Shown here in pieces: positions 25,336-49,994 of a stretch of DNA of 64,000 nt (the stretch's first letter is position 1; each line of letters begins with the position of its first letter). The notes beneath the pieces are model-generated. The model saw nothing but the letters and a program-made list of their open reading frames with translations. It was not told the origin of the DNA and did not search any database. A program made the position numbers and the translations under genes. Location of the stretch: assembly GCA_963749215.1 (NCBI GenBank), contig CAVVMA010000018.1, positions 51,513 through 115,512 of the forward strand, read 5' to 3'. The stretch comes from an uncultured delta proteobacterium. GTDB taxonomy: Bacteria; Desulfobacterota; Binatia; Binatales; Binataceae.

Positions 25336-25340
25336 ATGCG

Positions 25341-27742: not shown

Positions 27743-28456
27743 TCACACCTGAGGCATCTCGCGATCGACCTCGTCTCCTGAGGGGACGCATAGATACCAG
27801 CCGACGCAGGCGAACGCGATTAGAATGGCGAAAGCCGCCGCCAGGCTGGCGAGACTCCCCGCTTGCGAAAGGCGGACTTTGTCCAGATGGAATACCGACG
27901 GGAAGCCCTCCGGAGGACCGTCGACCGCAGCTATGCTCACCGAACGAAACCAGGCTCGACCTGGGCTGAAATCCCAATAGTCTCCGAGCCGCAAAGCGAT
28001 CTCCACGTCGGCACCGCTCTTGCCGACTTCGAGATAGAAGGCTAACCGCTCCCAGTCGGTGTCGCCGAGACCTTGAGGCGACCCCACGCCCTCGTCCGTC
28101 AGGCCTATGAAGGCGCCGGTCCCGTGCCGCGAAACACCGTCGGTCCTGCTTTCGGCGCTTATGTAGTACCATCCGGGCGGTAAGTATACCGGATGCATCA
28201 ACCGGGCATCGCTTCGGAGGTGATTGTCTATCTCAATCTGGCCCGGATTCGAGTCCGAAGGCGCCGTCCACGTATACTCAGTCGAGGGCAGACTCACTCG
28301 CGCATGCCATCCTGTTGGCGAGTTGTCACTCCCCGCGGTGAAGTCTCCATTAGTCAGCAAGTCCGCGATCGCCGGCGCCGGCGCGCAGACCGACCCCACC
28401 GCGATGATGATCGCGCTCGCCAGAAGGACACCGACAGGTTGCAGGAGTTGTCTCAT
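27743..28456 (-). CDS. Exported carbohydrate-binding-like (galactose-binding/CBM4-9-like) protein with C-terminal membrane anchor, paralog 1
   Basis: Signal peptide, LLTNGDF..G..P.GW, L..GWYY, DW.R, G.AWFR and C-terminal TM. Clearly similar to 41804-42529 and 49125-49994. Confidence 0.6.
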   Translation of the reverse strand: MRQLLQPVGVLLASAIIIAVGSVCAPAPAIADLLTNGDFTAGSDNSPTGWHARVSLPSTEYTWTAPSDSNPGQIEIDNHLRSDARLMHPVYLPPGWYYISAESRTDGVSRHGTGAFIGLTDEGVGSPQGLGDTDWERLAFYLEVGKSGADVEIALRLGDYWDFSPGRAWFRSVSIAAVDGPPEGFPSVFHLDKVRLSQAGSLASLAAAFAILIAFACVGWYLCVPSGDEVDREMPQV

Positions 28457-28465
28457 TACGGCATT

Positions 28466-31204
28466 TCACCACCAGGTTGGAGGTGCGGGCTGATCGACTC
28501 CCACGCGCGCCTGGTATCCGGCCGCTGAGATTGGGAGTCCGAGCCGGACGGGAAGAAACCACGCAAATGCGATTAGGGCGGCGGCAAAAAATGAAGCCGA
28601 GACGATTTTGCCCGCGTTGTCATAGCGCAGCGTCGCGGCCATCCAGAGGGCGGCCAGCAGCAGCGAGCCCACGATGCCGACGAACGTGCCGGCGATGAAT
28701 ACCAGAGACGCCGCGAGCGCGAGCATCAGCGCGGCCTGCTCCCATCGCGTCGCATCGCCGCGCCAACTTTCGGAAAGCATCGCCGCGAGCGCCAGGTAAC
28801 CGAGATAAAGCGACGGCATAAAGTCAAAGGAAAAAAGGTTGCCGCTGATCGGGAACCACGCGATCCATAGTCCAAGATAGCCGGCCACCAGGAAGCTCCC
28901 GGCCAGATTTGCGCGCCTCAGCAAGCGAGCGCCGGTGATGGCTATCGCGGCGAGTGCGCCGAACCAGAGGACCGGATTTCCGCCGGCCGCGATCGTGCCG
29001 ATTTGACCGCCTGCGAAAGTCTGCTGCCAATACGTCACTGGGCTGGGTATCACGGGCCAGGTCCACCATAGCGACGCACGGGGATCTTGGAGACTCGCTT
29101 TCAACTGGTCGAAATATCCCGCCTCAGTGAAGTATTGCCACAGTGCCGCAAGCCCGCCCCATTGCTTCAGCAGGTAGTTAGGCGCGAGCGCGAGCAAATA
29201 AACCATAAGTGCTATTGAGCCGGTGAGCAGCAAAGCCCCGAATGCCAGCCGGCCGCGAGTGAGGTTTCGCGGCTCGCGAATCGGGGCTTCCCGCGCGATC
29301 GAGACCTGGATCAACGTTCCTATCACCAGGGCCGTGACTACGATCGGAAGGTAGAGCTTGGATGCGAGGCAGAGGCCCACCGCGAGCCCGATGCAGGCGA
29401 GAGTGCGCGGACGCGCCGCGGCTTGGTTGCTCTGGATGAATCGGAACAAGAGCAGATATGAGAGGGCGGCGAAGGTGACGAATACGATCTCCAAAGAGAC
29501 GACCCGCGATTGCACAATGAACATGCCGTCACACAGGATGAACGTCGCAGCTATCGAGGCGGCCGTTCGCGAGCCCAGCATCCGGCGGCCGAGCAGATAG
29601 GTAATTCCCACCAGCGCAATTCCGGCGGCGGCCATCGGGAACCGCCGGCTCCACGCATAGTCGCCGAAAATCCTGATCGATAGCGCGATCAGCTCGACGA
29701 CCAGCGGCGGCTGCGAGTCGAAATAAGATTGTCCCGCCAGATGGGCGCGCGCCTGTCCCACGAACTCGCGCTCGTCGAAGAGCGTGGGCAGATTCCCAAG
29801 ATGCCACAGGCGCGATAGCGCCAGAACGATCAGCGTGCCGAGCACGATCGTGTCGGTGCGAGTCCAGCGCATCGCAGCGGCGGGCGGGCCGGCGCCTCGC
29901 GGCACGGCCGTTGGCTCGTCGCGGACCAAGGGCGCTGCGCGAGAAGCAGGCGAGACAAATGCGCTCCACAGCGCGTATAGAAATACCAGCAGATTGACGA
30001 CACCGATGGCCTTGGCGAAGGGGTCATGCGTGGCGATGAAACCGCCGGGGCTCTCGAGCAAATGCTTGGCGTAGACCAGATTGAAGAAGCAGGTTGCAGT
30101 CAGTACGGCCAGCGCGATGAGCATCGCGGGCTCCTCGATCGCCAGCGGAATCGCGACGACCAGAGCCGTGTAGAAATAGCGCTCGTGCATCCGCGAGGAG
30201 AACACAAAAGTGCCGAAGGTCGTGATAAAGACCGCGTACCACAAGTTGCGCGCCGATGGGCTCCGCCACAGAAGCCAGGCCGAGCCCGCATAAAGCGGTA
30301 TCGTCAGGAGCATCCCGATAGTGACAAACGCGAGGCCGCCGATCGTGTTCGAGTCGGGTACGTTGAAGCCGCCCAGCAGCGCCATGAAGTTGAAGGCGTT
30401 GTTGGAGGTGTAGGCAAAGAGCTGGACCGACTCGAAATAGCGTTCGATCTTGAACGGGGCAATCGCGACGGCTATGACCGCGACGAAGGCGAGCGCCGAC
30501 CGCCACCACTTGCCGAAATCGGCGCGCAGCAGAGTCCACACTCCGAGCACCGGCAGATACAGGAGCGCCTGCGGCTTGACGACCAGCGCGAGTCCCGCCA
30601 GCGCCCACGCGAGCTCGTACTGGGAATCGATCGCGCTCACGATACTCAGGAAAAGCGGCAGGGCCAGCGCCGAATCGGTCTGGCCCCATACCACCGTGTC
30701 GTAGATCAGGGCCGGATTGAGCGCGAACGCGAGCATCGCAACCCATGCGGCCCTCTTTGACCGGCCAGAACCACGGACCAGGACGAAGACGCTCGCAGCC
30801 AAAAGGAAATCGGCCACCAGCGGGGGACTCTCCACTATCACGCGCAGCGTTTCGCCGGTGGCCCCGGTCAGGCGCGCGATGATCCCGACCAACCAGCTTA
30901 CGTACAGATAACCCGGCGGGTAGTTGACGAAAAATCCAGGGTAGGCATTGGCGGGTCCCTGCTCGGCGATGTCGAGCGCCCAAACCCGGAAATTATTTAC
31001 GTCCTGATAGTATCCGGGAAAAAAGGGCAGCAGCGCGACCTTCGCTGCGGCGATCGCGAGCAGCGCCGCCAGCGCGGAGCGCAGACCGGAATCACGATCG
31101 TTCCATAGCAGCGCCGCTTTGCGGAGGATCGCGCCGCCCAGCAGCGTCGCGAGCGCGATCCCGGCGACGGCGCCGCTTATCCTTCCGTCCGAACCGAGCA
31201 TCAC
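28466..31204 (-). CDS. Tandem GT-C fusion: N-terminal PIG-M/GT87-like transferase plus C-terminal PMT (GT39) protein O-mannosyltransferase-like domain
   Basis: NYPPGYLY, ALNPALIYDTVVWGQTDS, VKPQ, MHERY in the first half; LFDE..FV..A..L.G..YFD.QPPL..LIA, S.WWTWP, GGNP..W in the second half. Confidence 0.8.
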   Translation of the reverse strand: MMLGSDGRISGAVAGIALATLLGGAILRKAALLWNDRDSGLRSALAALLAIAAAKVALLPFFPGYYQDVNNFRVWALDIAEQGPANAYPGFFVNYPPGYLYVSWLVGIIARLTGATGETLRVIVESPPLVADFLLAASVFVLVRGSGRSKRAAWVAMLAFALNPALIYDTVVWGQTDSALALPLFLSIVSAIDSQYELAWALAGLALVVKPQALLYLPVLGVWTLLRADFGKWWRSALAFVAVIAVAIAPFKIERYFESVQLFAYTSNNAFNFMALLGGFNVPDSNTIGGLAFVTIGMLLTIPLYAGSAWLLWRSPSARNLWYAVFITTFGTFVFSSRMHERYFYTALVVAIPLAIEEPAMLIALAVLTATCFFNLVYAKHLLESPGGFIATHDPFAKAIGVVNLLVFLYALWSAFVSPASRAAPLVRDEPTAVPRGAGPPAAAMRWTRTDTIVLGTLIVLALSRLWHLGNLPTLFDEREFVGQARAHLAGQSYFDSQPPLVVELIALSIRIFGDYAWSRRFPMAAAGIALVGITYLLGRRMLGSRTAASIAATFILCDGMFIVQSRVVSLEIVFVTFAALSYLLLFRFIQSNQAAARPRTLACIGLAVGLCLASKLYLPIVVTALVIGTLIQVSIAREAPIREPRNLTRGRLAFGALLLTGSIALMVYLLALAPNYLLKQWGGLAALWQYFTEAGYFDQLKASLQDPRASLWWTWPVIPSPVTYWQQTFAGGQIGTIAAGGNPVLWFGALAAIAITGARLLRRANLAGSFLVAGYLGLWIAWFPISGNLFSFDFMPSLYLGYLALAAMLSESWRGDATRWEQAALMLALAASLVFIAGTFVGIVGSLLLAALWMAATLRYDNAGKIVSASFFAAALIAFAWFLPVRLGLPISAAGYQARVGVDQPAPPTWW

Positions 31205-31268
31205 GTCGCCGGCAGCGCTGGCCCGATACGGCTAACCCGTGCCGCTTTGGCAACTCTGCGCCGAGCGC

Positions 31269-32318
31269 TCATAATCCCCGGAACGCCGCGAAGATCTTTT
31301 CCGCGTTGAGATGGTAAATCTTCTCCAGGATCTGGTCCGACAGTGCGAGACCATAGATCTTCCAGCGGCCCTGGCGCGGATAGCCCCAGTAGTCGAAGTA
31401 TTCATCGTCGGTTTCGAGCCATCGAAAGTAACTGCGATACATCGCTTCGGCAACTGGATGGTCGGTGCCGAACAGGATTCGGTCCTGATGCTTCTCAAAG
31501 AACGTGCGCGCGGCCCGCGGCTGGCGGCCCAGTTCGTTCTGACGGGCCCCGAAATCGACGAACACGTTCGGACGACGGTCCAGAACGTGGGCAACCTCGG
31601 CAAGGTCCTCGGCGCTGCTCCCCACGTGGAGCGCGATGAACGCGGTCCGCGGATGACGCGCGAACAGGCGCTGCTGCGCCTCCAGAAGCGATACCCTGGT
31701 GGGAAGGCCGGGCGCGCAGAAGCTCCATACCGGGTTGGCGAGCAGTTCCTCGTAGCGTTCGTTCGCCGTGTCGAGCGGATGAAAGAAGGCCTCAGGATCG
31801 GCGGTATGGATCGCGATCGGGATACCGAGCGCGGCGCATTCCTCGCAGATCGGATCGAGGCGAGGGTCGTCGACCGTGAGCAGCTTGCCCGAGCCGTCGC
31901 GAACCTGCAGACCGAGGTCTTTCAATATCTTGAGCCCACGCGCGCCGCGAGCCACGGCGTCGCGGATCTGACGCACGGTCAGCGGCGCGAATTCGGGATC
32001 GGCAATCCGGCTCCAGTCGATCTGTGTGAACACGGTCAAGCGATCCGGGAAAAGCTCTCCGGCCTCGTCGATTACTCTCTGGAGCTGCTCGCCCCACATC
32101 GCAGTCAGAATCACGACCCTGCGCACGTTGCATTCGTCCATGATCGCCGCGAGCCGTTCGCGCGGCACACGGCGCGGGAACAGTCCCATCGCATCGTTGA
32201 CGTGTTGATGCATGTCGATGGCCGGGAACCGGGCGCGCTCGATCTTATGCACCGGGACCTGCAATACAGTCCTCGGCTCGAATTCTTTCAAGAGCAAATT
32301 GGGGTCGCCGTTAGCCAT
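31269..32318 (-). CDS. Amidohydrolase family protein (Amidohydro_2)
   Basis: IDMHQH, GLKILKDLG, IHTADP, FIALHVG, RILFGTD. Confidence 0.88.
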   Translation of the reverse strand: MANGDPNLLLKEFEPRTVLQVPVHKIERARFPAIDMHQHVNDAMGLFPRRVPRERLAAIMDECNVRRVVILTAMWGEQLQRVIDEAGELFPDRLTVFTQIDWSRIADPEFAPLTVRQIRDAVARGARGLKILKDLGLQVRDGSGKLLTVDDPRLDPICEECAALGIPIAIHTADPEAFFHPLDTANERYEELLANPVWSFCAPGLPTRVSLLEAQQRLFARHPRTAFIALHVGSSAEDLAEVAHVLDRRPNVFVDFGARQNELGRQPRAARTFFEKHQDRILFGTDHPVAEAMYRSYFRWLETDDEYFDYWGYPRQGRWKIYGLALSDQILEKIYHLNAEKIFAAFRGL

Positions 32319-32437: not shown

Positions 32438-33475
32438 ATGGCCATCGCAAAGAGCGCCGAACTCGCAACCGCGCCGGTTGCCCGCCCCTCCAGCGATACG
32501 GCCTCGTTCAATTTCTACGGGGTCGGCCTTGCGGTCTCAAGCTCGGCGCCGAAAGTGCTGGAGTATCTGGCGCGCGATTTCGAGTACTTTGCCGCGTCCA
32601 CCGCCGGCCCGGGAATCGAGCTCCGAGCGCATGCCGGCGTTCCGCCGTGGGAGCGGATTCCCGAGCGGATCGCCGCGATGGTCACGCCAAACGCGATCAG
32701 CTATGACGACGGCCCGGTCCGTTACAACGATTACCATCGCCAGGCACTCGCGATTTACGATTTCAACTGCGAGCGCGGCGAGATCTGGGCGCTAACCGAA
32801 GATCTCCTCTACGAGATAACTTATCTCATGGCGCTCTCGCGGATAGGCGAGGCCCACGACCTTCGTAGAATCCATCGCGTGCACGCGCTCGGCGTAGCGG
32901 TCGCCGGCAAGGGCACGCTGGTCCTGCTTCCCGAGGCCGGGGGGAAGACTACGCTCGCTCTCGAACTGCTGAAGTATCCCGAGGTGGAACTGCTGTCCGA
33001 CGACACGCCGCTGGTCGAGCGCGGGATGCTGCGGGCGTTTCCGACCCGGCTCGGCATTCGAGGCGACTGCGACTATGGGATCGATCCAAGCCACATCCGC
33101 ACGATGAATCGTCGCAGCGGCGGGCCCAAGACGCTGGTGGATTTCAGCCATTTCCGGGACCGCGTCGTGGCCCAGGCGCGCCCGCAAGCATTGATCGTCG
33201 GTGTTCGGAGCAGCGGGACGGCTTCGCGAATCGAGCCAATCAGCCGAGTCCGCGGGCTGCCCGTGCTCACCGCGAATCTGGTCTTTGGCCTCGGATTGCC
33301 GCAGGTAGTCGAGTTCTTCCTGAGGGGCGGCGTGTTCGAGCTTTTCCGTAAGGCGTCGATCGTCGGGTCGCGAGTCGGCGCGAGCCTGCGTCTGTCGGCG
33401 CAGACCAGATGCTACCGCCTGGTGCTTGGGCGCGATATCGAAGCCGCGGCGCGAGCGCTGCGTTCCGTGCTATGA
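32438..33475 (+). CDS. HprK-related P-loop kinase-like protein
   Basis: VHALGVAVAGKG..L..GGKTT..LSDD, the HprK-like signature with a variant Walker A. Confidence 0.65.
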   Translation: MAIAKSAELATAPVARPSSDTASFNFYGVGLAVSSSAPKVLEYLARDFEYFAASTAGPGIELRAHAGVPPWERIPERIAAMVTPNAISYDDGPVRYNDYHRQALAIYDFNCERGEIWALTEDLLYEITYLMALSRIGEAHDLRRIHRVHALGVAVAGKGTLVLLPEAGGKTTLALELLKYPEVELLSDDTPLVERGMLRAFPTRLGIRGDCDYGIDPSHIRTMNRRSGGPKTLVDFSHFRDRVVAQARPQALIVGVRSSGTASRIEPISRVRGLPVLTANLVFGLGLPQVVEFFLRGGVFELFRKASIVGSRVGASLRLSAQTRCYRLVLGRDIEAAARALRSVL

Positions 33476-35022: not shown

Positions 35023-35795
35023 AGACCCGAATCGGCGATTTTCTGGAGCGTTACGACCTGCTGCGCAATCTGGTCTGGGCCGAGCTGACCGCCCGCTACA
35101 AGACCGCGCTGCTGGGGATTCTGTGGTTCGTGCTCAACCCCCTGATCGTCATGGTGATGCTGATTATCGTCTTCAGCCGTTTGATACATCTGGACATAAA
35201 GAACTACCCGGTGTTTGTCTTATCGGCCCTGCTGCCGTGGACTTTCTTCTCGATGGCGCTTACCAACGCGACCGGCTCGCTCGCCCGCTCGGCAAGCCTG
35301 GTCAAGCGGGTGCGAATTCCCCGCGCCTACATCCCCGTCTCGGCGGTCGGGGCGAGCCTGATCCACTTCCTGATTTCGCTTTCGATTTTGTTTGCCTTCA
35401 TGCTGGTCTCGGCCTCCAGGTTTTCGCTCCTGATCCTGCTGCTGCCGCTGATAGTTTGCCTGCAGATGATGTTCCTGACCGGCGCCTCGCTGCTGACCTC
35501 GAGCCTCAACGTGTTCTACCGCGACATCGAGCACATCCTGAGTCCCGCGATCCAGGCGCTGTTCTATCTGACGCCGAGTTTCTATCCGCTTTCGTACGTG
35601 CCGAAGCGATGGCTGGGATGGTACCTGCTGAACCCGATGGCCGGGATCATCGAGACTTACCGAGACGCGCTCACCGAGGGAATTCTTCCGGCGCGGTCGG
35701 TGATCGGGATGGCCGTGCTGATGTCGACGATCACGCTGGTTGCTGGAGTGTTGGTGTTCCGGCGTCTGGAGCCCTATTTCGATGACTACATCTAG
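35019..35795 (+). CDS. wzm: ABC-2 polysaccharide export permease (Wzm-like)
   Basis: ELTARYK..LLG.LW..LNPL, LLPWTFF, FYRDIEH, FYLTP.FY, LNPM..IIE.YR. ATG at 35019 overlaps the upstream stop. Confidence 0.92.
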   Translation: MKTRIGDFLERYDLLRNLVWAELTARYKTALLGILWFVLNPLIVMVMLIIVFSRLIHLDIKNYPVFVLSALLPWTFFSMALTNATGSLARSASLVKRVRIPRAYIPVSAVGASLIHFLISLSILFAFMLVSASRFSLLILLLPLIVCLQMMFLTGASLLTSSLNVFYRDIEHILSPAIQALFYLTPSFYPLSYVPKRWLGWYLLNPMAGIIETYRDALTEGILPARSVIGMAVLMSTITLVAGVLVFRRLEPYFDDYI

Positions 35796-39505: not shown

Positions 39506-39511
39506 CCTGCG

Positions 39512-40687
39512 ATGATTCGAGTCGGCTTCATCTGCGACCATCTCGAGATCGGCGGTCAGGAGCTCGGCTACATCGAACTGATGAAGCGGCTCGACCGCGC
39601 CCGCTTCTCTCCATACCTCTATGCATTCCGCCCCGGCCTTCTGCTCGCGCAGGCGCAGTCGCTGGGTGTTCCGATCGTGCTCGGCCACGACAAGCCGGGC
39701 GCGGATGAGGCCTGGACGGAGGCGGACTCGGCCGCGCGCATCCGCTATCGAGCTACGCTGGCGCGGCAATTGCGCGCCGACGCGATCGACGTATGCCTGC
39801 TGTACGCATGGTGGGACGGCCTCGCAGTCGCGCAGGACGCCGGCATCAAGGCGATCGTCGAACGCCTGGACGGGCCGACGCTGGCGAGCCGGATTCCCGA
39901 CAAGTCGCCGTGCCGGCGAATCGTTTGCGAATCGAGGGGAATCCGCGACCTGATTCTCGCGCAGCGCGAGCTGCTTCGATGCCGTCCGGAGCAAGTGGTC
40001 GTGATTCCCAATGGAATCGACCTCGACCGCTTCGATCCGGGCCGCTACGACCGCGCCCGCTGTCGCCATACGCTGGGCTTCGCGCCGGACGATTTCGTGA
40101 TCGGATCCGTAGCCCGTCTGGCGCCTGAGAAGAACCTCGGTCATCTGCTGCAGGCGGTAAAGTTTCTCATCGACTCGATCGGCAAAGCGCGTGATCGGCA
40201 TGCCCGGCTCCCGCGGATTCAGGCGGTCGTAGCCGGGCCCGATCAAGGTTGCCGCGCGGCTCTGGAGTCCGATGCGCGGCAATTGGCGATAGCCGATCGG
40301 GTTCGCTTCCTCGGCGCGCGGTCCGACGTGGCCGAAGTCCTGGCCGCGCTCGATGTCTTCACCCTGACCTCGATTTACGAGGGGAGCCCGTTCGCCCTGC
40401 TGGAAGCGATGGCGATGGGACTGCCGGTGGTGGCGACGCAGGTCGGAGCGGTGGCCGAAGTGATCGACGGGAACGGCTTTCTGGTAGGCCCGCTCAATCC
40501 CGAGCAGACCGGTCGCGCGCTGCGCGAGCTTCTGCTAAACGGTGAGCTTCGCGCGCGGCTCGGATGGCGCAGCCGTGAAGTCTCGCGGCGCTACGACGTC
40601 AGGCAGATGGTCGAGTCCTACGAAGCGATACTTATCGAAGCGCTCGCAGAATCGAGGGCGGAGTCGGCGATCGGGGGAACCTCGTGA
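39512..40687 (+). CDS. Glycosyltransferase family 4
   Basis: IGGQE, IPNGID, ARL.PEKN, EGSP..LLEAMA.GLPVVAT.VG. Confidence 0.92.
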   Translation: MIRVGFICDHLEIGGQELGYIELMKRLDRARFSPYLYAFRPGLLLAQAQSLGVPIVLGHDKPGADEAWTEADSAARIRYRATLARQLRADAIDVCLLYAWWDGLAVAQDAGIKAIVERLDGPTLASRIPDKSPCRRIVCESRGIRDLILAQRELLRCRPEQVVVIPNGIDLDRFDPGRYDRARCRHTLGFAPDDFVIGSVARLAPEKNLGHLLQAVKFLIDSIGKARDRHARLPRIQAVVAGPDQGCRAALESDARQLAIADRVRFLGARSDVAEVLAALDVFTLTSIYEGSPFALLEAMAMGLPVVATQVGAVAEVIDGNGFLVGPLNPEQTGRALRELLLNGELRARLGWRSREVSRRYDVRQMVESYEAILIEALAESRAESAIGGTS

Positions 40688-40709
40688 AGATCCTCTCCGA
40701 GGAACGCAA

Positions 40710-41807
40710 TTGCGCGTAGCCGCGACCAGCCTGAATCTTCAAGCCGATGGACCGGCCGGCCGGCCGGCGGCGAACGCGCAAGTTGCGCCCCTGAGCGTCA
40801 TAGTCCCGACTCACCGGCGTCCGGCCGATCTCAAAAAGTGCCTCGCCAGTATCGTGACGCCGGATCTTCCCGCCGACGCCGAAGTGCTCGTGGTATGCAA
40901 CGGGCCCGACGCGGACAGCGAGAGCTTTCTCGACCAGTTGGCGGCGCGCGAGCCCCGGCTGCTGGTGATGCGGCTTCAGAAACGGCAACCGGGCGCAGCC
41001 CGCAACGCCGCGCTCGATCGGGCGCGCGGCGAGATCATCTTCTTCCTCGATGACGACGTGACGGTCGCGCCCGGATTCTTCTCCAGCGCGATGCGGCTGT
41101 TCGCGGAGCGCCCGGAGCTCGACGTGCTCGGCGGTCCGAACCTCACCCCGGTTGACTCGGGAAAATTCGAGCACTGCGTAGGGCGCGTGCTTGCCTCTCC
41201 GTTCGGCTCGGCCACCACTCGTCACAGATTCCGCGGCGCCGGCCGCTTGAGGCCTGCCGACGATCGATCGCTGATTCTTTGCAACCTGATCATACGCAGA
41301 AGAGCCATGGAGGGGCTGAACGCTCCGTTTCGCAATCACATGATCAGCAACGAAGAAAATGTCCTGCTGGCGGAGCTGGCGTTCCGGCACAAGGTGATGC
41401 TCCACGATCCCTCGTTGATCGTCTACCACAGCCGCCGGCCCAACTTTAGCGGGTTTTTCCGGCAGGTCTTTCGCTATGGCCAGGGACGATGGCAGAACAT
41501 CGAGGCGTTGCCGTCCTCGCTCTCGCCGGTTTTCCTGATCCCCTTGCTGTTCCTGCTTTATCTGCTTTCGATACCGATTGTCCGAAGCCCTATCTACAGT
41601 GTGCCGCTCTTTGTATATGCCGCTTTGGCAGTTATTTTTTCGCTGATTGAGGCGTTGCAGGCCGGCGATCCGCGTGCGTTCCCGACCCTGCTCGTTCTTT
41701 TTCCTTGTTGCCATATCGGCTACGCGATGGGTTTCGGGTGGCAATTAGTCAGATCGCTCGCTTCGCGATGGTTCGGCGTCGGTGCTGCGTACTCATCAGC
41801 GCCTTAG
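40710..41807 (+). CDS. Glycosyltransferase family 2 (start uncertain)
   Basis: SVIVPT..R..LKKCL.SI, ARN..L..ARG.II.FLDDD, FRQVFRYGQGR and C-terminal TM helices. Confidence 0.85.
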   Translation: MRVAATSLNLQADGPAGRPAANAQVAPLSVIVPTHRRPADLKKCLASIVTPDLPADAEVLVVCNGPDADSESFLDQLAAREPRLLVMRLQKRQPGAARNAALDRARGEIIFFLDDDVTVAPGFFSSAMRLFAERPELDVLGGPNLTPVDSGKFEHCVGRVLASPFGSATTRHRFRGAGRLRPADDRSLILCNLIIRRRAMEGLNAPFRNHMISNEENVLLAELAFRHKVMLHDPSLIVYHSRRPNFSGFFRQVFRYGQGRWQNIEALPSSLSPVFLIPLLFLLYLLSIPIVRSPIYSVPLFVYAALAVIFSLIEALQAGDPRAFPTLLVLFPCCHIGYAMGFGWQLVRSLASRWFGVGAAYSSAP

Positions 41808-42529
41808 CTTTTGTCTGGTTCCTCGAGCGCGAGCCAACCCCACAGCGTGATCGCCATCAGCGAGAGCACCAGGGCCGCGACGCTCCAGAGGCGGCCCCGG
41901 GCCGGCGCGAACGCGCTTGGCTCGGCGGCACGGAATGACTCGACGGATTTGTCATGAATGTTGCCAAGATCGACCTGAGCGGCGCCGGCGGGTGGATCGC
42001 CCGAGATCGCCACGAGCCTGATATGACGAAAGGATGCGCTGCCGCGGCCTTCGAGCTGGCAGATGATCTGCATGCTGTGCCGGTTCCCGGGGACCTTGAT
42101 GTACATTTCGCCCCTGGTCCAGCCGTCGCCGCGAGAGCTTGTATCGAGTCGCGATAATCCGAACTCATGCCTCATGAGGTGGACTCCAATCGTGCCCACG
42201 TCACCTGAATTACCGATCGTCTTCGTCTCGCCAGTCAGGTAGTACCAGCCTAGCGGCAGCGTGACCGTCTGACTCCACAGTGCGATGTTAGGTTTGTGGT
42301 TGACCACGTGGAGCTCGCCGCCGCTCCCCGGCTGATGGCTCCATGAAAACGTGTCACTGGCGATGACTACCCTTTGACTCGCGGTTCGCCAGCCGTTGGG
42401 TAGTTGGCCGGTGCCTTCGCTCAAATCGCCGTTGCTAACGAGATTGTCGCCGGCCAAAGCGCTGCGCGGCAGCCACAGCCCCAGATTGACTACTATCAGC
42501 GCGGTTGCGAGACGACGCCTGTTCATCAA
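41804..42529 (-). CDS. Exported carbohydrate-binding-like protein with C-terminal membrane anchor, paralog 2
   Basis: Signal peptide, NLVSNGDL..G..P.GW, L.LGWYY, WTR, G.A.FR, PP.G..DL, GRLW and TM. Confidence 0.6.
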   Translation of the reverse strand: MMNRRRLATALIVVNLGLWLPRSALAGDNLVSNGDLSEGTGQLPNGWRTASQRVVIASDTFSWSHQPGSGGELHVVNHKPNIALWSQTVTLPLGWYYLTGETKTIGNSGDVGTIGVHLMRHEFGLSRLDTSSRGDGWTRGEMYIKVPGNRHSMQIICQLEGRGSASFRHIRLVAISGDPPAGAAQVDLGNIHDKSVESFRAAEPSAFAPARGRLWSVAALVLSLMAITLWGWLALEEPDKS

Positions 42530-42572: not shown

Positions 42573-44066
42573 TCAGAACCAGTTGACCAACCCGGAGCCA
42601 TGAAGCCACAGCCGCGCCTGCTGTGCAGCCGGACTGATCGGCGTCCCGATCCAGAGCGGAAGGAAGTAGACGAACGCGATAAGCGTGGCGCCGACGTAGC
42701 AAGCGCATACAAAGCGCCCAGCGAAGAGGCGGCCCCGGCGCAAGGAGAGCACGTAGCCCGAGGCGGTCGCGGCTGCCGCGGCCAGGCCGGGACCGGTTCC
42801 GAGGCCGAGGATCATAGACGGCGACAGCGCCGCGAGCAGCGCGACGTTTTCAAAGCTTCGGGTCTCGCCCTCCCAGCATTCGGCGAGCAGAACCGCGAGC
42901 GTCAGGAACCCGAGGTACAGTGCAGGCATATAGTAATAGGTAAATTTGTACCGGGTAATTGGAATCCATACCACGAGGTAGGCGAGGTACCCGAGCACGA
43001 GAAATGCTCGTGGCAAGCTTCTGCGCCTGACCGCCTCTAGGCCCACGAGCGGAATCGCCACCACCACCGCCCACCAGATTATCGGGTTGCCTATTCCTCG
43101 AATCGAGGCGACGTCCGCACCGGGCAGCGCCAGGAAATCCTCCTGTCTCCAGTACCGGATCGGCCTGAGCATCAGCGGCCAGCTCCACCACGGCGAATTC
43201 TGCGGATGGTAAGGTGGCAGACTGGTCTGGAAGTTCCACTCGCTTTTGTAATAGACGATCTGATCGCTCACTCCGTGCCAGAATCCGAACCAGTAGTTCG
43301 GCATGTACAGGGCCAGGTAGACCAGCGCGCTCAGACCTCCCACCAGCGCGAAGGCAGCCGCGATTTGCCGTATCGGGACGGAACCCGCTTTGCGCGCGCT
43401 TGCGGGCGTCTGCCGGATTATGACGAACGTCACCGCGCTCATCACCAGCGCGCCGGTCAGGACCGGGATGCCGAGCTTGGAGGCCAGCGACAGTCCGAGG
43501 GCGAGTCCCATCCAGGCGAGCGATCTTCTGCGCGATAACGGGTCCGCGCTTTGCGCAAACCTGAAGACCATCAGGTACGCCCAAGCACCGAAGGTGAGAT
43601 AGAAGATCTCCCAAAGCCCGGTGCGCGAATCGATCAGAAACTGGCCGTCGCAAAGCAGGAAGAGCGACGCGAAGCCGGCCGTGACGCGCGAATTGAACAT
43701 CCGGCGCGTCAGCAGGTAGGTGATCGCCACCAGTGCAGTTCCTAGCGCTGCGCTGGCGAGCCGCCAGCTCCACGGATGGTCGCCGAAGAGTGCGATAGAC
43801 GCAGCTATCATTTCTGCGGCCAGCGGCGGATGGGTCGTTTTATCCGGCAGATGGCGCAGGTAAAGCCTGGCTGCTGTGACTGTGAACCATTCGTCGAACA
43901 CGATGGTGGGCGGATAACCCAAGCCGGGGAATCGGGTCGCCAGCGAGGCGGCCACGAACCCGCACAGGGCGTAAGTGTCGATTCGCGACCATTGCGGCGC
44001 CTGGAACCCTTCCGGTTTTGCGATACCGGGCGGGACGGCGCCTTCTGCGATTTTGCCTGTCGGCAT
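42573..44066 (-). CDS. PMT (GT39)-like phospholipid-carrier-dependent glycosyltransferase
   Basis: TIVFDE, THPPLA..MIA.SI.LFGD.PWSWR, SPWWSWPLMLRP, GNP.IWW, YYMPAL. Confidence 0.85.
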   Translation of the reverse strand: MPTGKIAEGAVPPGIAKPEGFQAPQWSRIDTYALCGFVAASLATRFPGLGYPPTIVFDEWFTVTAARLYLRHLPDKTTHPPLAAEMIAASIALFGDHPWSWRLASAALGTALVAITYLLTRRMFNSRVTAGFASLFLLCDGQFLIDSRTGLWEIFYLTFGAWAYLMVFRFAQSADPLSRRRSLAWMGLALGLSLASKLGIPVLTGALVMSAVTFVIIRQTPASARKAGSVPIRQIAAAFALVGGLSALVYLALYMPNYWFGFWHGVSDQIVYYKSEWNFQTSLPPYHPQNSPWWSWPLMLRPIRYWRQEDFLALPGADVASIRGIGNPIIWWAVVVAIPLVGLEAVRRRSLPRAFLVLGYLAYLVVWIPITRYKFTYYYMPALYLGFLTLAVLLAECWEGETRSFENVALLAALSPSMILGLGTGPGLAAAAATASGYVLSLRRGRLFAGRFVCACYVGATLIAFVYFLPLWIGTPISPAAQQARLWLHGSGLVNWF

Positions 44067-45958: not shown

Positions 45959-46161
45959 GAGTGGTGCGTATTTTGGGTTGCTCTGTTGCGCGGAAATAAT
46001 AATGACCGGCGAGACGCCGGTCCTACTACGTAGGCTGGAGCGCGATGCCGGTTGGCAAGCAGGCCTTCACCCGGCGCCAATCGGGCACCTGTTAATCGGC
46101 TGAGCTTCCTGCTTAGCTTATTTCCGGTGCGGCGGCCCTCCAGCGGCGCCGGGCGACACGG

Positions 46162-49122
46162 ATGACTGTGTGCGACAATTCCAGAACGCGCTCGATGCGC
46201 GGGGTGATCGCCGCGCTCGCGTGTGCCGCGACGCTGGTCTTCGCTCACACGATCGCGTGGGCCGCGGCCGACAATCCGGACGCACCTGACGGACGGCTCG
46301 CAGGCTATATCGCTGCACTGACGATCATCCTGCTGATCGGCTATGGGCTCTATCTGTGCCTGAAGCCGATCCTGAACCGGCCCGATTCAGGTCTCTCGCA
46401 GGCGCTGCTGATACTGGTCGTTATTTTCCTGCTCAAGGAGGCCGTGGCGCCGCTCTTTCCGGGGTTCGGCGTCGACGTTGGCAGCTATCAGTCGTGGGCG
46501 GAAAGGATGGCCGACCTCGGCCCCGCCCGCATGTACGCGTCCGGGTACTTCCTGGATTATCCGCCCGGATACCTCTACGCGCTGTGGTTGGTCGCCGCGA
46601 TCGGACGGGTTTTCAACGTTAGCGGCGAAGCGTTACGCCAGCTCGTCGAGAGCCCGGCGCTGGTCGCGGATTTTCTGCTCGCGCTCGCCGTTTTCGGCTA
46701 CGTCCGGCGCTCCGCCGGCACTGCGTTGGCCTACGCGGCGATGCTGATGGTCGCGCTCAATCCGGCGATGCTGTTCGAAAGCGTGGTCTGGGGGCAGAGC
46801 GATTCGGTCTCGGCCCTGCTGATGTTCCTGTGCGTCACCTGCGTGCTCGACGGCGAGTTCGAGGCCAGTTGGGCGCTCGCCGCGGTTGGCGTGCTGGTCA
46901 AACCGCAGGTGCTGCTCTTTTTGCCGGTGCTTGGACTGTGGACGCTGATCAAGGGCGATCCCGAAAAATGGTGGCGCTCGGCGCTGGCGCTGCTCGCGAT
47001 GGGCGTTGTCACGGCGATGCCGTTCCAGCTCGGCCATCCGTGGAGCTGGCTGCTGGACCTCTACCGGAGCACCGCAGGCTACTATCACGAGACCTCGGTC
47101 AACGCATTCAACCTGATGGCGTTGCTCGCGGGTCTGCGCGCACCCGATGCGACCACGGTGCTGGGCGTGTCGTGGTTCACGCTCGGGATGACGATGCTGG
47201 CCGGCCTGTACGCATTCATCGCGTGGGTTCTGTGGCGGCGCGCCACCGCGAAGAACCTGCTGTACTGCACCTTTCTGGTGGTGTTCGGGTCCTTTATGCT
47301 CGCGCCGCGGATGCACGAGCGTTACGTGTATCCCGCCCTGGTGTTTCTGATTCCGATCGCGTTCGAGGATCCCCTGATGCTCGCGGTGTACGCGATCACG
47401 ACGGCGACGCTGCTCTTCAATCTCGCCTATATCAAGCGCGTCCTGGAAAGCCCGAAGATTTTTCTCGACGGCCGGGACACCCTTGCGATGATCGCTTCGG
47501 CGATCAACGTGGTAGGACTCGCGGCCGCCTTCGTCTACGCGCTGAAGCCCGCGGCCACCGAAGAGGTGGTCGAGGAGCCCCCCGAGAAACTCCGCGCCGA
47601 GGCCGGGATACAGGCGCTGGTCGCAAGGTTCAGGGCCGCCTCGACGGCCACCGCTACGGTTCCTCCTGCCTCGGAGCCGGCGCTGGCCGGCCGCGCGATG
47701 CCATGGCTTCGCATCGACACGATCGTAATGACGGTTCTGATCGCGTGCGCTGCAGTGACACGCCTGTGGCGGCTGGCGCTTCCAGGAGAGATCGTCTTCG
47801 ACGAAGTCCACTTCGTCGAGAATCAGGCGCGTCACTACCTGCACGGCGAGTCGTTCCTCGACCCCCATCCGCCGCTCGACAAGCTGGTGATTACGCTCGG
47901 CATCCTGCTCTTCGGCGACCATCCATGGAGCTGGCGAATCGGCAACGCGGTAATCGGCATCGCCCTGGTAGGTATCACCTATCTGCTCGGACGGAGGATG
48001 TTTCATTCGCGGCTGGCTGCGGCGCTGGCGGCCGCCTTTATCGCCGGCGACGGGCTGTTCATTGTCGATTCGCGGATCGCGGTGATCGATATCGCGTATG
48101 TGACCGCGGCGGCGTTTGCTTACCTGATGCTGTTCCGGTTCCTCGAGAATACCGAGCCGCTCGATCGCCGCCGGACGATGGTCTGGATGGGCCTGGCGCT
48201 CGGACTTTGCATGGGCTCGAAGCTCTACATTCCATTCGTCGCCTTCCTGCTGGTGATGGGATTTCTGATTCGTGCCTTGTGGGTACCCGACGGAGTATCG
48301 TTGCGCCTGGCGAGATACGACCCCCAGCGCTATCGGCGCGTCGGCGGCGCGGTGCTCCTGACCGGCGCGATAAGCGCCGCCGTCTACATCGCGATCTTCC
48401 TGCCGCATTTCCTGCTCGGATGGTGGGGCGGAGTCGCCGACCTGGTCCATTACTACAGCGACGTCCTGTGGTACGAGCGGAGCGTCTCGTCGGCGACCCA
48501 TCCCTATTCCTCGCCGTGGTGGAGTTGGCCGCTGATGCTTCGCCCGGTCGCCTATTGGCAGAATTTTCCGAACACCGGCAAGGTCCAGACCGTCTGGGGC
48601 GGCGGCAACCCCGCCTCGTGGTGGGCAGCCTTTACCGCGATCGGGATAATCGCGGTGCAGGCCTACGAGCGCCGCTCGACGTGGCGTCCCTTTATACTGA
48701 TCGGATACCTGGGCTTCCTGGCGATCTGGGTCCCGATCGGGCGCACGCTGTTCCTGTATCACTACATGGGGTCCATATATCTCGCCTATCTGGCGCTGGG
48801 CGCGGTGCTGGCCGAGTGCTGGAATGACGGCGCGCAGCCGTGGGAGCATCTGGCGCTCCTGCTCACGCTCGTGCCGGTCTTCATACTCGGACTCGGCCCG
48901 GCCTGGGGCATAGCCAACTTGCTCATCGTCGCGGTCTGCTACGCAACCGTTCTGCTCCAACGGCCGCAATACGCCGGCAAATTCACCTGCGCAGTGCTCT
49001 GCGCGGTCTCGTTGGTCGTGTTCCTCTACTACTACCCGATCTGGATCGGTCTCCCGATCGAACGCTCCGGATATTACGCCCGGATGTGGTTGCAAGGCGG
49101 GGGACTGCGGTCCTGGATCTGA
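46162..49122 (+). CDS. Tandem GT-C fusion (PIG-M/GT87-like plus PMT/GT39), paralog of 28466-31204
   Basis: DYPPGYLY, ALNPA.LF.SVVWGQ.DS, VKPQ, MHERY, then EIVFDEVHFV, DPHPPL.KL, SPWWSWPLMLRP, GGNP..WW. Confidence 0.85.
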   Translation: MTVCDNSRTRSMRGVIAALACAATLVFAHTIAWAAADNPDAPDGRLAGYIAALTIILLIGYGLYLCLKPILNRPDSGLSQALLILVVIFLLKEAVAPLFPGFGVDVGSYQSWAERMADLGPARMYASGYFLDYPPGYLYALWLVAAIGRVFNVSGEALRQLVESPALVADFLLALAVFGYVRRSAGTALAYAAMLMVALNPAMLFESVVWGQSDSVSALLMFLCVTCVLDGEFEASWALAAVGVLVKPQVLLFLPVLGLWTLIKGDPEKWWRSALALLAMGVVTAMPFQLGHPWSWLLDLYRSTAGYYHETSVNAFNLMALLAGLRAPDATTVLGVSWFTLGMTMLAGLYAFIAWVLWRRATAKNLLYCTFLVVFGSFMLAPRMHERYVYPALVFLIPIAFEDPLMLAVYAITTATLLFNLAYIKRVLESPKIFLDGRDTLAMIASAINVVGLAAAFVYALKPAATEEVVEEPPEKLRAEAGIQALVARFRAASTATATVPPASEPALAGRAMPWLRIDTIVMTVLIACAAVTRLWRLALPGEIVFDEVHFVENQARHYLHGESFLDPHPPLDKLVITLGILLFGDHPWSWRIGNAVIGIALVGITYLLGRRMFHSRLAAALAAAFIAGDGLFIVDSRIAVIDIAYVTAAAFAYLMLFRFLENTEPLDRRRTMVWMGLALGLCMGSKLYIPFVAFLLVMGFLIRALWVPDGVSLRLARYDPQRYRRVGGAVLLTGAISAAVYIAIFLPHFLLGWWGGVADLVHYYSDVLWYERSVSSATHPYSSPWWSWPLMLRPVAYWQNFPNTGKVQTVWGGGNPASWWAAFTAIGIIAVQAYERRSTWRPFILIGYLGFLAIWVPIGRTLFLYHYMGSIYLAYLALGAVLAECWNDGAQPWEHLALLLTLVPVFILGLGPAWGIANLLIVAVCYATVLLQRPQYAGKFTCAVLCAVSLVVFLYYYPIWIGLPIERSGYYARMWLQGGGLRSWI

Positions 49123-49124
49123 GA

Positions 49125-49994
49125 ATGAGGGCCTCGGCGGCCGGAACCACGCGCACCGGCTTGCTGTTCGCCGCCGCTGCGCTCGCCGCGATCGTCATCG
49201 GCGCGGGCGCTCTCGGCGCGGAGCCGATCAAGGGCGCGAGCGCCGAGAACCTGATCATCAACGGCCAGTTCATCAAAGGCGCCGGAAATTCCCCGGATCA
49301 CTGGCGCACGGAGGGATGGGACCAGAAGCCGGAAACAACCTCCTACCAGTGGCACCATTCGGAAGCGGGCGGTCCCGGCCAGCTCGAGATCGACAGCACG
49401 CAACCTAACGACGCGCGCTGGATGGAAAGCCTGAGCCTCAACGCCGGATGGTACTACTTCAGCGTCGACGCGCGCACCGAGAACCTCGGCACCCAGGCGG
49501 GCGCAACGCTTAGTATCATGGAGGATGGGATCTCCTCGCGGGAACTCAAAGGCACCACCGACTGGACCAGGATCGGGCTCTATCTGAAAGTCGGCGGGAT
49601 GGGCGCTGATATTGAAATGGCGCTCAGGCTGGGCGGCTACAGTTCCTTGAACACCGGGCGCGCGTTCTTCCGCGACGCGACCCTTATTCGCGTGCCGGCC
49701 CCGCCGCCAGGCGCGGAGCACGTCTTCGACCTCGATGTCGTACGCAAGGCGTCCCAGGAGCAGCCGATCGGACGACTGTGGACGATGGTCGCGCTGTTCG
49801 CGATGCTCGGCTGGGCCGCGGTCCAGGGATGGCGGCTTTATGGCGAGGCGACGTTGCGTCCGGCGCGCCCGGTCGCAGTCCCGGCTCCGCCCAAGCCGGT
49901 AGAAAAGCCCAAGCAAGAACCCCCCAGAGACGAACGCCCCAAGGACGAGCGCAAGCCGGTGCGCGGCAAGAAAAAACAGCGCAAACGGAAGTAG
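49125..49994 (+). CDS. Exported carbohydrate-binding-like protein with C-terminal membrane anchor and basic tail, paralog 3
   Basis: ATG 2 nt after the upstream stop. NLIINGQF..G..P..W, L.AGWYY, DWTR, GRAFFR, PPG..FDL, GRLW and TM. The track start at 48840 is over-extended. Confidence 0.65.
   Translation: MRASAAGTTRTGLLFAAAALAAIVIGAGALGAEPIKGASAENLIINGQFIKGAGNSPDHWRTEGWDQKPETTSYQWHHSEAGGPGQLEIDSTQPNDARWMESLSLNAGWYYFSVDARTENLGTQAGATLSIMEDGISSRELKGTTDWTRIGLYLKVGGMGADIEMALRLGGYSSLNTGRAFFRDATLIRVPAPPPGAEHVFDLDVVRKASQEQPIGRLWTMVALFAMLGWAAVQGWRLYGEATLRPARPVAVPAPPKPVEKPKQEPPRDERPKDERKPVRGKKKQRKRK

What the first reader, a model, noticed from the sequence alone, without database searches (positions are those of the whole stretch)
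27743..49994. Three independent copies of a two-gene module: PMT-type glycosyltransferase followed by a membrane-anchored lectin-like partner
Seen: each PMT-containing gene (28466-31204, 42573-44066, 46162-49122) is directly followed on the same strand (gaps of 9, 43 and 2 nt) by a paralogous gene encoding signal peptide + NG.F..G..P..W / GWYY / G.A.FR domain + C-terminal TM helix. The three pairs are in separate transcription units. Established: PMT/GT39 enzymes O-mannosylate Ser/Thr in eukaryotes and actinobacteria, and several GT-C enzymes rely on periplasmic or luminal carbohydrate-binding modules. Inference: these are dedicated accessory subunits (acceptor recognition or product binding) of a two-component bacterial protein O-glycosylation machine that I do not recognise as characterised.
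Basis: partly seen in the sequence, partly recalled or inferred. Interest (0 to 1): 0.62.

Follow-up and report, generated by a model that had tools for sequence, protein, structure and literature searches.

The report
PMT glycosyltransferases with CBM-like membrane partners
This uncultured soil bacterium (Binataceae) pairs every one of its protein-mannosyltransferase-like membrane enzymes with a small membrane-anchored protein of sugar-binding fold, which probably acts as a substrate-selecting cap; this is an undescribed variant of the multi-subunit mannosylation complex recently reported in mycobacteria.

Summary
Three PMT/GT39-type GT-C genes are each followed on the same strand, after 9, 43 and 2 nt, by a paralogous gene. 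Each partner encodes a signal peptide, a beta-sandwich domain and a C-terminal TM helix.

The partner matches no Pfam, NCBIfam or PDB sequence. Its AlphaFold model (pLDDT 88.9) matches CBM70, CBM4, CBM16 and CBM61. A profile comparison ties it to a Pfam-recognised CBM_4_9 domain (98.5%).

The linkage is not chance. In 121 sampled genomes of the class, 51 of 52 PMT modules have a partner domain within 3.5 kb on the same strand. It is either the next gene or fused N-terminally in proteins of about 1,150-1,400 aa (CBM, then a GT87-like module, then PMT). Paralogous pairs co-diverge.

PMT1 and PMT3 are GT87-like::PMT fusions. The PMT3 pair is the conserved ancestral copy.

Most likely reading: the partner is a dedicated periplasmic lectin-type subunit of a protein O-glycosylation machine acting on Pro/Thr-rich secreted proteins. 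The genome has about 50 ORFs with (TP)n linkers. The partner would play the role of the eukaryotic MIR domain or the mycobacterial Rv3212 beta-propeller.

The acceptor, the sugar and physical contact between enzyme and partner are all untested. I rate this a new variant of a known kind, of moderate interest.

The parts
27743..28456 (-). Partner 1 (237 aa): signal peptide, CBM4_9-like beta-sandwich, C-terminal TM helix
   Evidence: Translation. AF2 model with pLDDT 88.9: strands at residues 59-190 and a TM helix at 202-223. Foldseek matches CBM70, CBM4, CBM16 and CBM61.
28466..31204 (-). PMT1 (912 aa): a double GT-C fusion. The N-terminal GT87/ALG3/ALG6-like module covers about residues 1-430. 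The C-terminal PMT/GT39 module covers about residues 440-912 and carries an LFDE motif.
   Evidence: PF02366 49.8 bits, PF16192 37.4 bits, and weak ALG3 and Alg6_Alg8 hits in the N-terminal half.
41804..42529 (-). Partner 2 (241 aa), the most divergent of the three paralogues
   Evidence: Its closest paralogue is the C15 partner, and PMT2's closest paralogue is the C15 PMT.
42573..44066 (-). PMT2 (497 aa): a PMT/GT39 module only, with a VFDE motif
   Evidence: PF16192 72.8 bits, PF02366 56.9 bits.
46162..49122 (+). PMT3 (986 aa): a double GT-C fusion (GT87-like plus PMT). It is the conserved ancestral copy in the family.
   Evidence: Its ortholog in genome G190 is 51-60% identical, and the yebC-ruvCAB genes downstream are syntenic.
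49125..49994 (+). Partner 3 (289 aa): the same architecture, plus a Lys/Arg/Pro-rich cytoplasmic tail
   Evidence: It has 111 close homologs, mostly from Binataceae metagenome-assembled genomes (MAGs).
40542..41807 (+). GT2 with C-terminal TM helices. It is a possible, unproven polyprenyl-phosphate-sugar synthase. It is the last gene of an ABC-2 transporter/GT cluster (about 32438-41807) that lies between pairs 1 and 2.
   Evidence: The link to the PMT pairs is not conserved in other genomes.
79..2829 (+). Secreted beta-propeller-repeat protein with a (TP)n linker; a candidate acceptor by inference only
9373..12789 (+). BNR/Ig-like secreted protein with a PT-rich linker; a candidate acceptor by inference only
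18737..20758 (-). 673-aa protein with a PT-rich linker; a candidate acceptor by inference only

Best explanation
Each partner is a type-I membrane protein. A cleavable signal peptide exports a divergent CBM4_9-type beta-sandwich to the periplasm. A tether of about 10 residues and a conserved C-terminal TM helix hold that domain at the membrane surface, next to its cognate GT-C enzyme.

The enzyme uses a polyprenyl-phosphate-hexose donor, probably mannose. Its PMT/GT39 module, through the FDE motif in the first periplasmic loop, puts the first sugar on Ser/Thr of exported Pro/Thr-rich proteins. Where a GT87-like module is fused to it (PMT1, PMT3), that module probably extends the glycan or acts as the Pmt2/Rv0051-like second protomer.

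The CBM-like partner sits over the periplasmic active sites. There it selects or holds the acceptor, binding either the extended (TP)n chain or its already glycosylated part. This is the job done by the MIR domain in eukaryotic PMTs and proposed for the Rv3212 beta-propeller in mycobacteria.

Shown here: the fold, homology to CBM_4_9, obligate genomic linkage, natural fusions, and co-divergence of pairs.

Inferred: physical contact, ligand binding, the nature of the acceptor, and the sugar.
For: Fold and family
- The AF2 model has pLDDT 88.9.
- Foldseek top hits are CBM70, CBM4-2, CBM16, CBM61 and CBM22, with E down to 9e-9 and TM-scores (TMt) of 0.6-0.7.
- hhalign of the family profile against the N-terminal domain of P0376 gives 98.5% probability, E 3.8e-15. 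Pfam calls that domain CBM_4_9.

Linkage
- In this genome, 6 of 6 PMT modules lie beside a partner.
- In 121 genomes of the class, 51 of 52 PMT modules have a partner domain within 3.5 kb on the same strand. The one exception sits at a contig end. The two families also occur in the same genomes.

Natural fusions
- CBM, GT87-like and PMT modules occur in one 1,150-1,400-aa protein in sister families.
- The same fusion occurs in a Christensenellaceae MAG.

Co-divergence
- PMT and partner identity matrices correlate: Mantel r = 0.79, with 7 of 720 permutations at or above that value.

Conserved TM helix
- L205, L212 and G219 are at least 90% conserved and W220 is invariant.

PMT identity
- Pfam scores are above threshold, and F-D-E is invariant.
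- The model of a fused homolog matches Pmt4, Pmt1 and Pmt2 best (TMt 0.74). Its N-terminal module matches PimE and PIG-M (TMt 0.63).

Acceptor
- The genome has about 50 ORFs with (TP)n linkers.
- (TP)6-coding DNA occurs in 20 of 44 genomes with the system against 4 of 77 without it.
- Bacterial Pmt prefers Pro-rich Ser/Thr sites (PMC12331936).

Precedent
- Mycobacterial Pmt co-purifies with a GT87-like protein and a periplasmic cap protein (preprint).
Against: - No interface was tested. The tools cannot co-fold two chains, and neither PAE nor coordinates of the fused-protein model were available. Docking of the CBM on the enzyme is therefore not shown.
- No carbohydrate-binding site was mapped. 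Most invariant residues could be purely structural.
- CBM4/16/22-type modules usually bind glycan chains, which fits a polysaccharide acceptor as well.
- Pairs 1 and 2 flank an ABC-2 transporter/GT cluster.
- The (TP)n correlation is phylogenetically confounded. Many genomes with the system have no (TP)6 run, for example G163, which has 4 pairs.
- 33 of 98 partner-domain hits are not near a strong PMT module. Some are fused to GT87-like or unannotated polytopic domains, and some sit beside a fabF-like gene.
- The NCBIfam Pmt equivalog scores far below its cutoff (at most 84 bits against 800). These enzymes are therefore not orthologs of the characterised actinobacterial enzyme.
Confidence: 0.6

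Rival explanations
1. The enzymes decorate or extend a polysaccharide or glycolipid in the periplasm, and the CBM-like partner binds that glycan acceptor. This is how the lectin-like C-terminal CBMs of mycobacterial EmbC and AftD work.
For: - The CBM4/16/22/61/70 fold is typical of glycan-chain binders.
- Pairs 1 and 2 flank an ABC-2 permease/ATPase plus a cluster of several GTs, with a GT2 carrying C-terminal TM helices next to partner 2.
- Partner domains also accompany non-PMT polytopic proteins and PA14 domains.
- There is precedent for a GT-C enzyme with a CBM: PMC3044687, listed.
Against: - The catalytic modules score as GT39 (PMT plus PMT_4TMC, with the FDE motif). To my knowledge every characterised GT39 enzyme is a protein O-mannosyltransferase.
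- The conserved ancestral pair (PMT3 and partner 3) sits beside yebC-ruvCAB, not in a glycan locus.
- PMT2-like pairs in other genomes have no homologs of the window's ABC/GT cluster nearby.
- (TP)n-linker proteins are enriched in genomes carrying the system.
Confidence: 0.2
2. The partner is a structural or assembly subunit only. Its TM helix and beta-sandwich stabilise the GT-C enzyme or bridge two of them, much as the small subunit Rv1209 is proposed to do in mycobacteria, and it has no ligand-binding role.
For: - TM-helix residues are conserved.
- No ligand site has been identified.
- Direct Pfam CBM_4_9 hits are absent for the window proteins.
Against: - A CBM fold of about 150 residues is retained across more than 1,400 clusters, with conserved aromatic residues (W50, W63, W96/Y97, W135). 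That is more than a membrane brace would need.
- Some relatives carry additional lectin-type domains, PA14 and F5/8-C.
Confidence: 0.12
3. The partner is an independent, co-expressed periplasmic lectin or a substrate of the enzyme. For example it might retain glycoproteins at the membrane, without being part of the enzyme.
For: - One copy (C17) lacks the TM anchor.
- A 1,649-aa relative carries 8 tandem copies of the domain.
Against: - Repeated in-frame fusion to the enzymes, with the TM helix retained.
- A tether too short to reach away from the membrane.
- No Ser/Thr/Pro-rich acceptor stretch in the partners.
Confidence: 0.08

Closest known systems
Mycobacterial Pmt complex: Pmt/Rv1002c (GT39), Rv0051 (GT87-like), Rv3212 (periplasmic beta-propeller) and Rv1209. 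Source: bioRxiv 10.64898/2026.07.15.738315.
   Same: - A GT39 enzyme is combined with a GT87-type GT-C protein.
- A membrane-anchored periplasmic accessory protein is proposed to cap the active site and select acceptors.
- The preprint also notes GT87::GT39 fusions in Paenibacillus.
   Different: - Here GT87-like and GT39 are one polypeptide in two of the three copies.
- The GT87-like module keeps many invariant acidic residues and a His-Glu-Arg motif, whereas Rv0051 is described as non-catalytic.
- The cap is a CBM4_9-like beta-sandwich with a C-terminal TM helix, not a beta-propeller.
- A DivIVA-like subunit was not looked for.
Eukaryotic PMT1/PMT2/PMT4 with a luminal MIR domain (PDB 6P25, 9I5K; eLife 2020, PMC7759382)
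   Same: - The PMT fold is the best structural match.
- The DE motif is present.
- A lectin-type domain sits next to the active site and serves Ser/Thr-rich acceptors.
   Different: - MIR is a beta-trefoil inserted in a loop of the same chain.
- Here the lectin-like module is a jelly-roll. It is encoded as a separate gene, or fused at the N-terminus in relatives.
EmbC and AftD arabinofuranosyltransferases with lectin-like CBMs (PMC3044687; the AftD cryo-EM preprint listed)
   Same: A GT-C enzyme is combined with periplasmic CBM-type jelly-roll modules that hold the acceptor.
   Different: - They belong to a different GT family (GT53 and others).
- Their acceptor is a polysaccharide.
- Their CBMs are always in the same chain.
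Pfam CBM_4_9 (PF02018); CAZy CBM4, CBM16, CBM22, CBM61 and CBM70
   Same: The fold, the NGDFE-like first strand, and profile-level homology.
   Different: - The window proteins do not reach the Pfam threshold.
- They are attached to a TM anchor and accompany glycosyltransferases, not glycoside hydrolases.

Membership tests
GT39 / PMT protein O-mannosyltransferases | Pfam PMT (PF02366) and PMT_4TMC (PF16192) scores above the gathering cutoffs | tested here: met
   PF02366 scores 49.8, 56.9 and 80.4 bits (cutoff 22.7). PF16192 scores 37.4, 72.8 and 66.4 bits (cutoff 32.4).
GT39 / PMT protein O-mannosyltransferases | Asp-Glu catalytic motif in the first extracytoplasmic loop | tested here: met
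   The motifs are LFDE, VFDE and VFDE. F57, D58 and E59 are invariant in alignment A3 and in the 45-sequence alignment A4.
GT39 / PMT protein O-mannosyltransferases | PMT fold | tested here: met
   The AF2 model of a fused homolog (about 32-39% identical to the window enzymes) matches Pmt4 best (9i5k, TMt 0.74), then Pmt1 and Pmt2 (6p25). The window proteins themselves were not modelled.
GT39 / PMT protein O-mannosyltransferases | Orthology to characterised actinobacterial Pmt (NCBIfam equivalog NF058602) | tested here: not met
   Scores are 39.7-84.5 bits against a cutoff of 800.
GT39 / PMT protein O-mannosyltransferases | Transfer of mannose from polyprenyl-phosphate-mannose to protein Ser/Thr | not testable with these tools
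   Needs biochemistry or glycoproteomics.
GT87 (PimE-like) GT-C | Pfam GT87 (PF09594) score above cutoff, and a PimE-like fold | tested here: inconclusive
   - The window N-terminal modules hit only ALG3 (24.1 bits against 23.6) and Alg6_Alg8, both weakly.
- Stand-alone paralogues in this genome score 21.2 and 28.1 bits against a cutoff of 25.
- Fused relatives carry precomputed PF09594 hits.
- The fold matches PimE (9dm7) and PIG-M (9wno) at TMt 0.63.
CBM_4_9 (PF02018) carbohydrate-binding modules | Sequence-profile membership | tested here: inconclusive
   The window partners have no direct Pfam hit at E of 0.1 or better. The family profile aligns to a Pfam-positive CBM_4_9 domain at 98.5% probability, E 3.8e-15. 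One distant stand-alone relative carries PF02018.
CBM_4_9 (PF02018) carbohydrate-binding modules | Beta-jelly-roll fold of CBM4, CBM16 and CBM22 | tested here: met
CBM_4_9 (PF02018) carbohydrate-binding modules | Binds carbohydrate | not testable with these tools
   Needs glycan arrays or ITC with the recombinant domain.
Mycobacterial-type Pmt holo-complex | A GT39 catalytic subunit together with a GT87-like GT-C partner | tested here: met
   The two are fused in PMT1 and PMT3. At the C15 locus of the same genome they are separate genes.
Mycobacterial-type Pmt holo-complex | Rv3212-like periplasmic beta-propeller cap | tested here: not met
   The adjacent accessory protein is a CBM-like beta-sandwich. 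The genome was not searched for a propeller homolog.
Three-component (GtrABC-like) extracytoplasmic glycosylation systems | An adjacent GT2 polyprenyl-phosphate-sugar synthase and a GtrA-type flippase | tested here: inconclusive
   A GT2 with C-terminal TM helices lies next to partner 2, but it matches only generic GT2 structures. No flippase was identified. The neighbourhood is not conserved in other genomes.

The most novel reading that the evidence does not exclude
The CBM-like partner is a third, independently evolved lectin cap for protein O-mannosyltransferases, after the MIR beta-trefoil and the Rv3212 beta-propeller. It would bind the already glycosylated part of a (TP)n linker and feed the chain processively through two active sites, with PMT initiating and the GT87-like module extending. 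The expansion to 6 enzymes and 9 partners in this genome would then represent cognate enzyme-lectin pairs, each tuned to a different class of Pro/Thr-linker surface proteins.
Probability: 0.3. Interest if true: 0.7.

Novelty: new variant of a known kind. Interest (0 to 1): 0.55.

Why it matters
How bacterial protein O-mannosyltransferases choose their substrates is an open question, because they lack the MIR domain of the eukaryotic enzymes. A complex with a periplasmic cap was proposed for mycobacteria only in 2026.

This family gives a genetically clean, separable version of that idea. It is a small, soluble-domain lectin-type subunit that is obligately linked to the enzyme, naturally fused to it in relatives, and present in more than 1,400 sequence clusters.

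It yields direct experiments: binding assays with the isolated domain, and swaps between cognate and non-cognate pairs. It also provides parts for engineering O-glycosylation of Pro/Thr linkers, and suggests that Binatia coat many secreted proteins with O-glycans.

Tried and rejected
1. Sequence searches of the partner against Pfam, NCBIfam and PDB gave nothing usable. Only fold and profile-profile comparison gave an answer.
2. The search for related loci with the 51-sequence alignment failed because it had no conserved stretch to search with. I used the genome search instead.
3. The apparent PMT-partner fusion at C11:21733-23874 in the same genome is rejected as a true fusion. The last 47 or so residues of the PMT are in another frame, so this is a frameshift or an assembly error.
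4. I rejected the idea that pairs 1 and 2 belong to the ABC-2/GT polysaccharide cluster between them. PMT2-like pairs in other genomes lack homologs of that cluster, and the ancestral pair sits next to yebC-ruvCAB.
5. PDB sequence search did not show the GT2 at 40542-41807 to be a Ppm1/GtrB-type synthase. It gave only generic GT2 hits.
6. The fused protein was modelled with AF2 to see whether the CBM docks on the enzyme (pLDDT 84.6, pTM 0.71). The tool returns neither coordinates nor PAE, so docking could not be judged.
7. Polytopic neighbours of distant stand-alone partners could not be assigned to any family.
8. Literature searches for Binatota glycosyltransferases found nothing specific.
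Full report
**What is in the window**

The ORF map and translations confirm the three gene pairs.
- Pair 1: 28466-31204 (-) followed by 27743-28456 (-), gap 9 nt.
- Pair 2: 42573-44066 (-) followed by 41804-42529 (-), gap 43 nt.
- Pair 3: 46162-49122 (+) followed by 49125-49994 (+), gap 2 nt.

All three large proteins score above Pfam's cutoffs for PMT, PMT_2 and PMT_4TMC. Each carries an F-D-E motif after the first TM helix of the PMT module.

PMT1 (912 aa) and PMT3 (986 aa) have an extra N-terminal polytopic module of about 430-470 residues. It gives weak ALG3, Alg6_Alg8 and GT87 similarity. PMT2 (497 aa) is the PMT module alone.

The three partners are paralogues at 29-38% identity (E 5e-18 and 1e-44). 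Each has a signal peptide with an AxA site and a C-terminal hydrophobic helix. None hits Pfam, NCBIfam or any PDB sequence.

Genes on the opposite strand lie between the pairs.
- One group is an ABC-2 permease, an ABC ATPase, a 998-aa multi-domain GT, a GT4 and a GT2 with C-terminal TM helices.
- The other is an MFS_3 transporter.

**What the partner is**

An AlphaFold2 model of partner 1, built with 50 homologs, is confident (pLDDT 88.9, pTM 0.77). It shows these parts in order:
- an N-terminal helix;
- a beta-sandwich at residues about 41-190;
- a tether of about 10 residues;
- a TM helix at 202-223.

Foldseek against the PDB returns carbohydrate-binding modules almost exclusively. The hits are CBM70 (4d0q, E 9e-9), CBM4-2, CBM16, CBM61, CBM22 and the CBM-like domains of phage tailspikes, with TMt of 0.6-0.7.

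A profile of the family aligns with 98.5% probability (E 3.8e-15) to the N-terminal domain of a 1,364-aa GT-C protein, P0376. Pfam itself calls that domain CBM_4_9. The partner is therefore a divergent, membrane-anchored CBM4_9-type module. Whether it binds sugar was not testable.

**Is the pairing real?**

In the window's own genome (a MAG, 86% complete, whose relatives are named Candidatus Binataceae) there are 6 PMT modules and 9 partner copies.
- Every PMT module lies beside a partner.
- The other three loci are a partner-PMT-PMT-partner-partner cluster on C11, a PMT-partner pair on C15, and two partner copies away from any PMT.
- One of those two is fused to a DUF6057-like polytopic domain. 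The other lacks the TM anchor.

I then surveyed 121 evenly sampled genomes of the class.
- The partner family and strong PMT modules occur in the same families and nowhere else.
- 51 of 52 PMT modules have a partner domain within 3.5 kb on the same strand.
- 37 of these have it as the next gene, at most 317 nt away.
- The remaining exception lies at the end of a contig.
- A sample of 150 genomes from the rest of the phylum gave only one weak hit.

In three sister families the partner domain sits 1.3-1.5 kb upstream in the same reading frame. BLASTP on fetched loci and Pfam on database proteins show genuine proteins of about 1,150-1,400 aa with the order CBM, TM helix, GT87-like, PMT. In one of these families (f80, for example L009 and L010) a second, stand-alone partner gene usually follows; the f81 loci examined (L011, L014) have none.

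The same architecture, sometimes with an added F5/8-type-C domain, occurs in a Christensenellaceae MAG and in other metagenomic proteins.

Within this genome the identity matrices of PMT modules and of their partners correlate (Mantel r = 0.79; 7 of 720 permutations reach it). So the pairs duplicated and diverged as units.

The TM helix of the partner is itself conserved, which suggests specific packing in the membrane.

**Limits of the PMT specificity**

Of the 98 partner-domain hits in the class, 33 are not near a strong PMT module.
- Some are fused to a GT87-like module alone (660-aa proteins).
- One lies directly upstream of a more distant PMT-family gene.
- One is joined to a PA14 domain.
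- A group in one family sits next to a fabF-like gene.

An exhaustive profile search finds 2,484 clusters at 50% identity (1,419 at E of 1e-10 or better), with many N-terminal fusions. Distant stand-alone members from low-GC organisms keep the same build and lie next to unannotated proteins with 8-12 TM helices.

The domain is thus a companion of GT-C-type membrane enzymes in general. GT87-like::PMT is its main client in Binatia.

**Which copy is ancestral, and is the glycan cluster relevant?**

Most Binataceae genomes have one double GT-C gene and one partner. The ortholog in another genus is 51-60% identical to PMT3 and 48% identical to partner 3. It keeps the downstream yebC-ruvC-ruvA-ruvB genes. 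PMT3 with partner 3 is therefore the core copy, and it is not in a polysaccharide locus.

PMT2-like pairs in other genomes have no homologs of the window's ABC-2/GT cluster nearby. Its position between pairs 1 and 2 is probably local.

**What it most likely does**

The catalytic modules carry the GT39 signatures. The AF2 model of a fused homolog (pLDDT 84.6) matches fungal Pmt4, Pmt1 and Pmt2 best. Its N-terminal module matches PimE and PIG-M, and its first domain matches CBMs.

The GT87-like module keeps many invariant residues across 45 sequences. These include Asp in the first periplasmic loop and an H-E-R-Y motif, so it looks active rather than degenerate. This is an inference.

The genome encodes about 50 ORFs with (TP)n linkers, three of them in the window. 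DNA encoding (TP)6 is found in 20 of 44 genomes with the system but in 4 of 77 without it. This genome has by far the most, at 232 matches. That correlation is confounded by phylogeny and is not universal.

Bacterial Pmt is known to prefer proline-rich Ser/Thr sites (PMC12331936).

Taken together, the best reading is a protein O-glycosylation machine for Pro/Thr-rich exported proteins. PMT initiates, the GT87-like module extends or scaffolds, and the short-tethered CBM-like partner sits at the periplasmic face to select or hold the acceptor or the nascent glycopeptide.

**Comparison with what is known**

A 2026 preprint (10.64898/2026.07.15.738315) reports that mycobacterial Pmt co-purifies with three proteins.
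- Rv0051 is GT87-like.
- Rv3212 is a beta-propeller, modelled above the active site as a MIR-like gatekeeper.
- Rv1209 is DivIVA-like.

The preprint also notes GT87::GT39 fusions in Paenibacillus. The Binataceae system has the same logic with a different cap (a CBM jelly-roll on its own TM anchor) and a fused, apparently active GT87-like module.

EmbC and AftD are the precedent for a GT-C enzyme with a CBM acting on glycans, and they define the main rival reading.

Other agents of this scan reached similar conclusions for related Binatia loci. I treat those notes as agreement, not as independent evidence.

**Verdict**

This is an uncharacterised but widespread accessory family, best classed as a new variant of a known kind.

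Not shown here: physical contact between partner and enzyme, ligand binding, the donor sugar, and the acceptor.

Noticed in passing
window 79-2829, 9373-12789 and 18737-20758; whole genome: About 50 ORFs in this genome carry long (TP)n linkers. (TP)6-coding DNA gives 232 matches in this genome, against 0-118 in the other 120 genomes of the class.
   Followed up: partly
G000 C11:19432-24583: A second cluster with the order partner-PMT-PMT-partner-partner. The second PMT has its last 47 or so residues in another frame, so its ORF runs into the partner frame. This is a frameshift, a pseudogene or an assembly error, not a real fusion.
   Followed up: partly
G000 C15:41414-43576: A 720-aa protein that joins the partner domain to a polytopic membrane domain with weak DUF6057 similarity. 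It lies next to a GT2 gene.
   Followed up: partly
G000 C15:427062-434642: At this locus the GT87-like module (430847-432265) and the PMT (427928-429484) are separate genes. A gene that looks PaaK/F390-synthetase-like from its N-terminal sequence (no search run) lies between them, and a PT-rich protein (433425-434642) is nearby.
   Followed up: no
G000 C17:43522-44220: A partner-family copy without the C-terminal TM helix, so it may be soluble. It lies next to a 411-aa gene that looks like an MFS-type transporter from its sequence (no search run), and no PMT is nearby.
   Followed up: no
window 31269-32318: An Amidohydro_2 gene lies 64 nt upstream of PMT1 on the same strand.
   Followed up: no
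window 32438-41807: An ABC-2 transporter glycan cluster. It holds a 998-aa protein with three GT domains (GT4-like, Glyco_trans_1_2, GT2), and two genes with no Pfam hit. One of those (32438-33475) has a P-loop-like GGKTT motif.
   Followed up: partly
P0231 (metagenomic protein): A 1,649-aa protein with 8 tandem stretches matching the partner-domain profile.
   Followed up: no
L012 (G225:C1:2534000-2553000): A cluster in another Binataceae genome. It holds a 972-aa protein with the partner domain and a C-terminal PA14 domain, a 468-aa membrane protein, a 255-aa partner and a 534-aa PMT-family gene.
   Followed up: partly
window 22373-25661: A low-GC stretch (0.55-0.57) holding a DUF3800 gene. 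Earlier notes of this scan treat it as an IS1-type cargo transposon.
   Followed up: no
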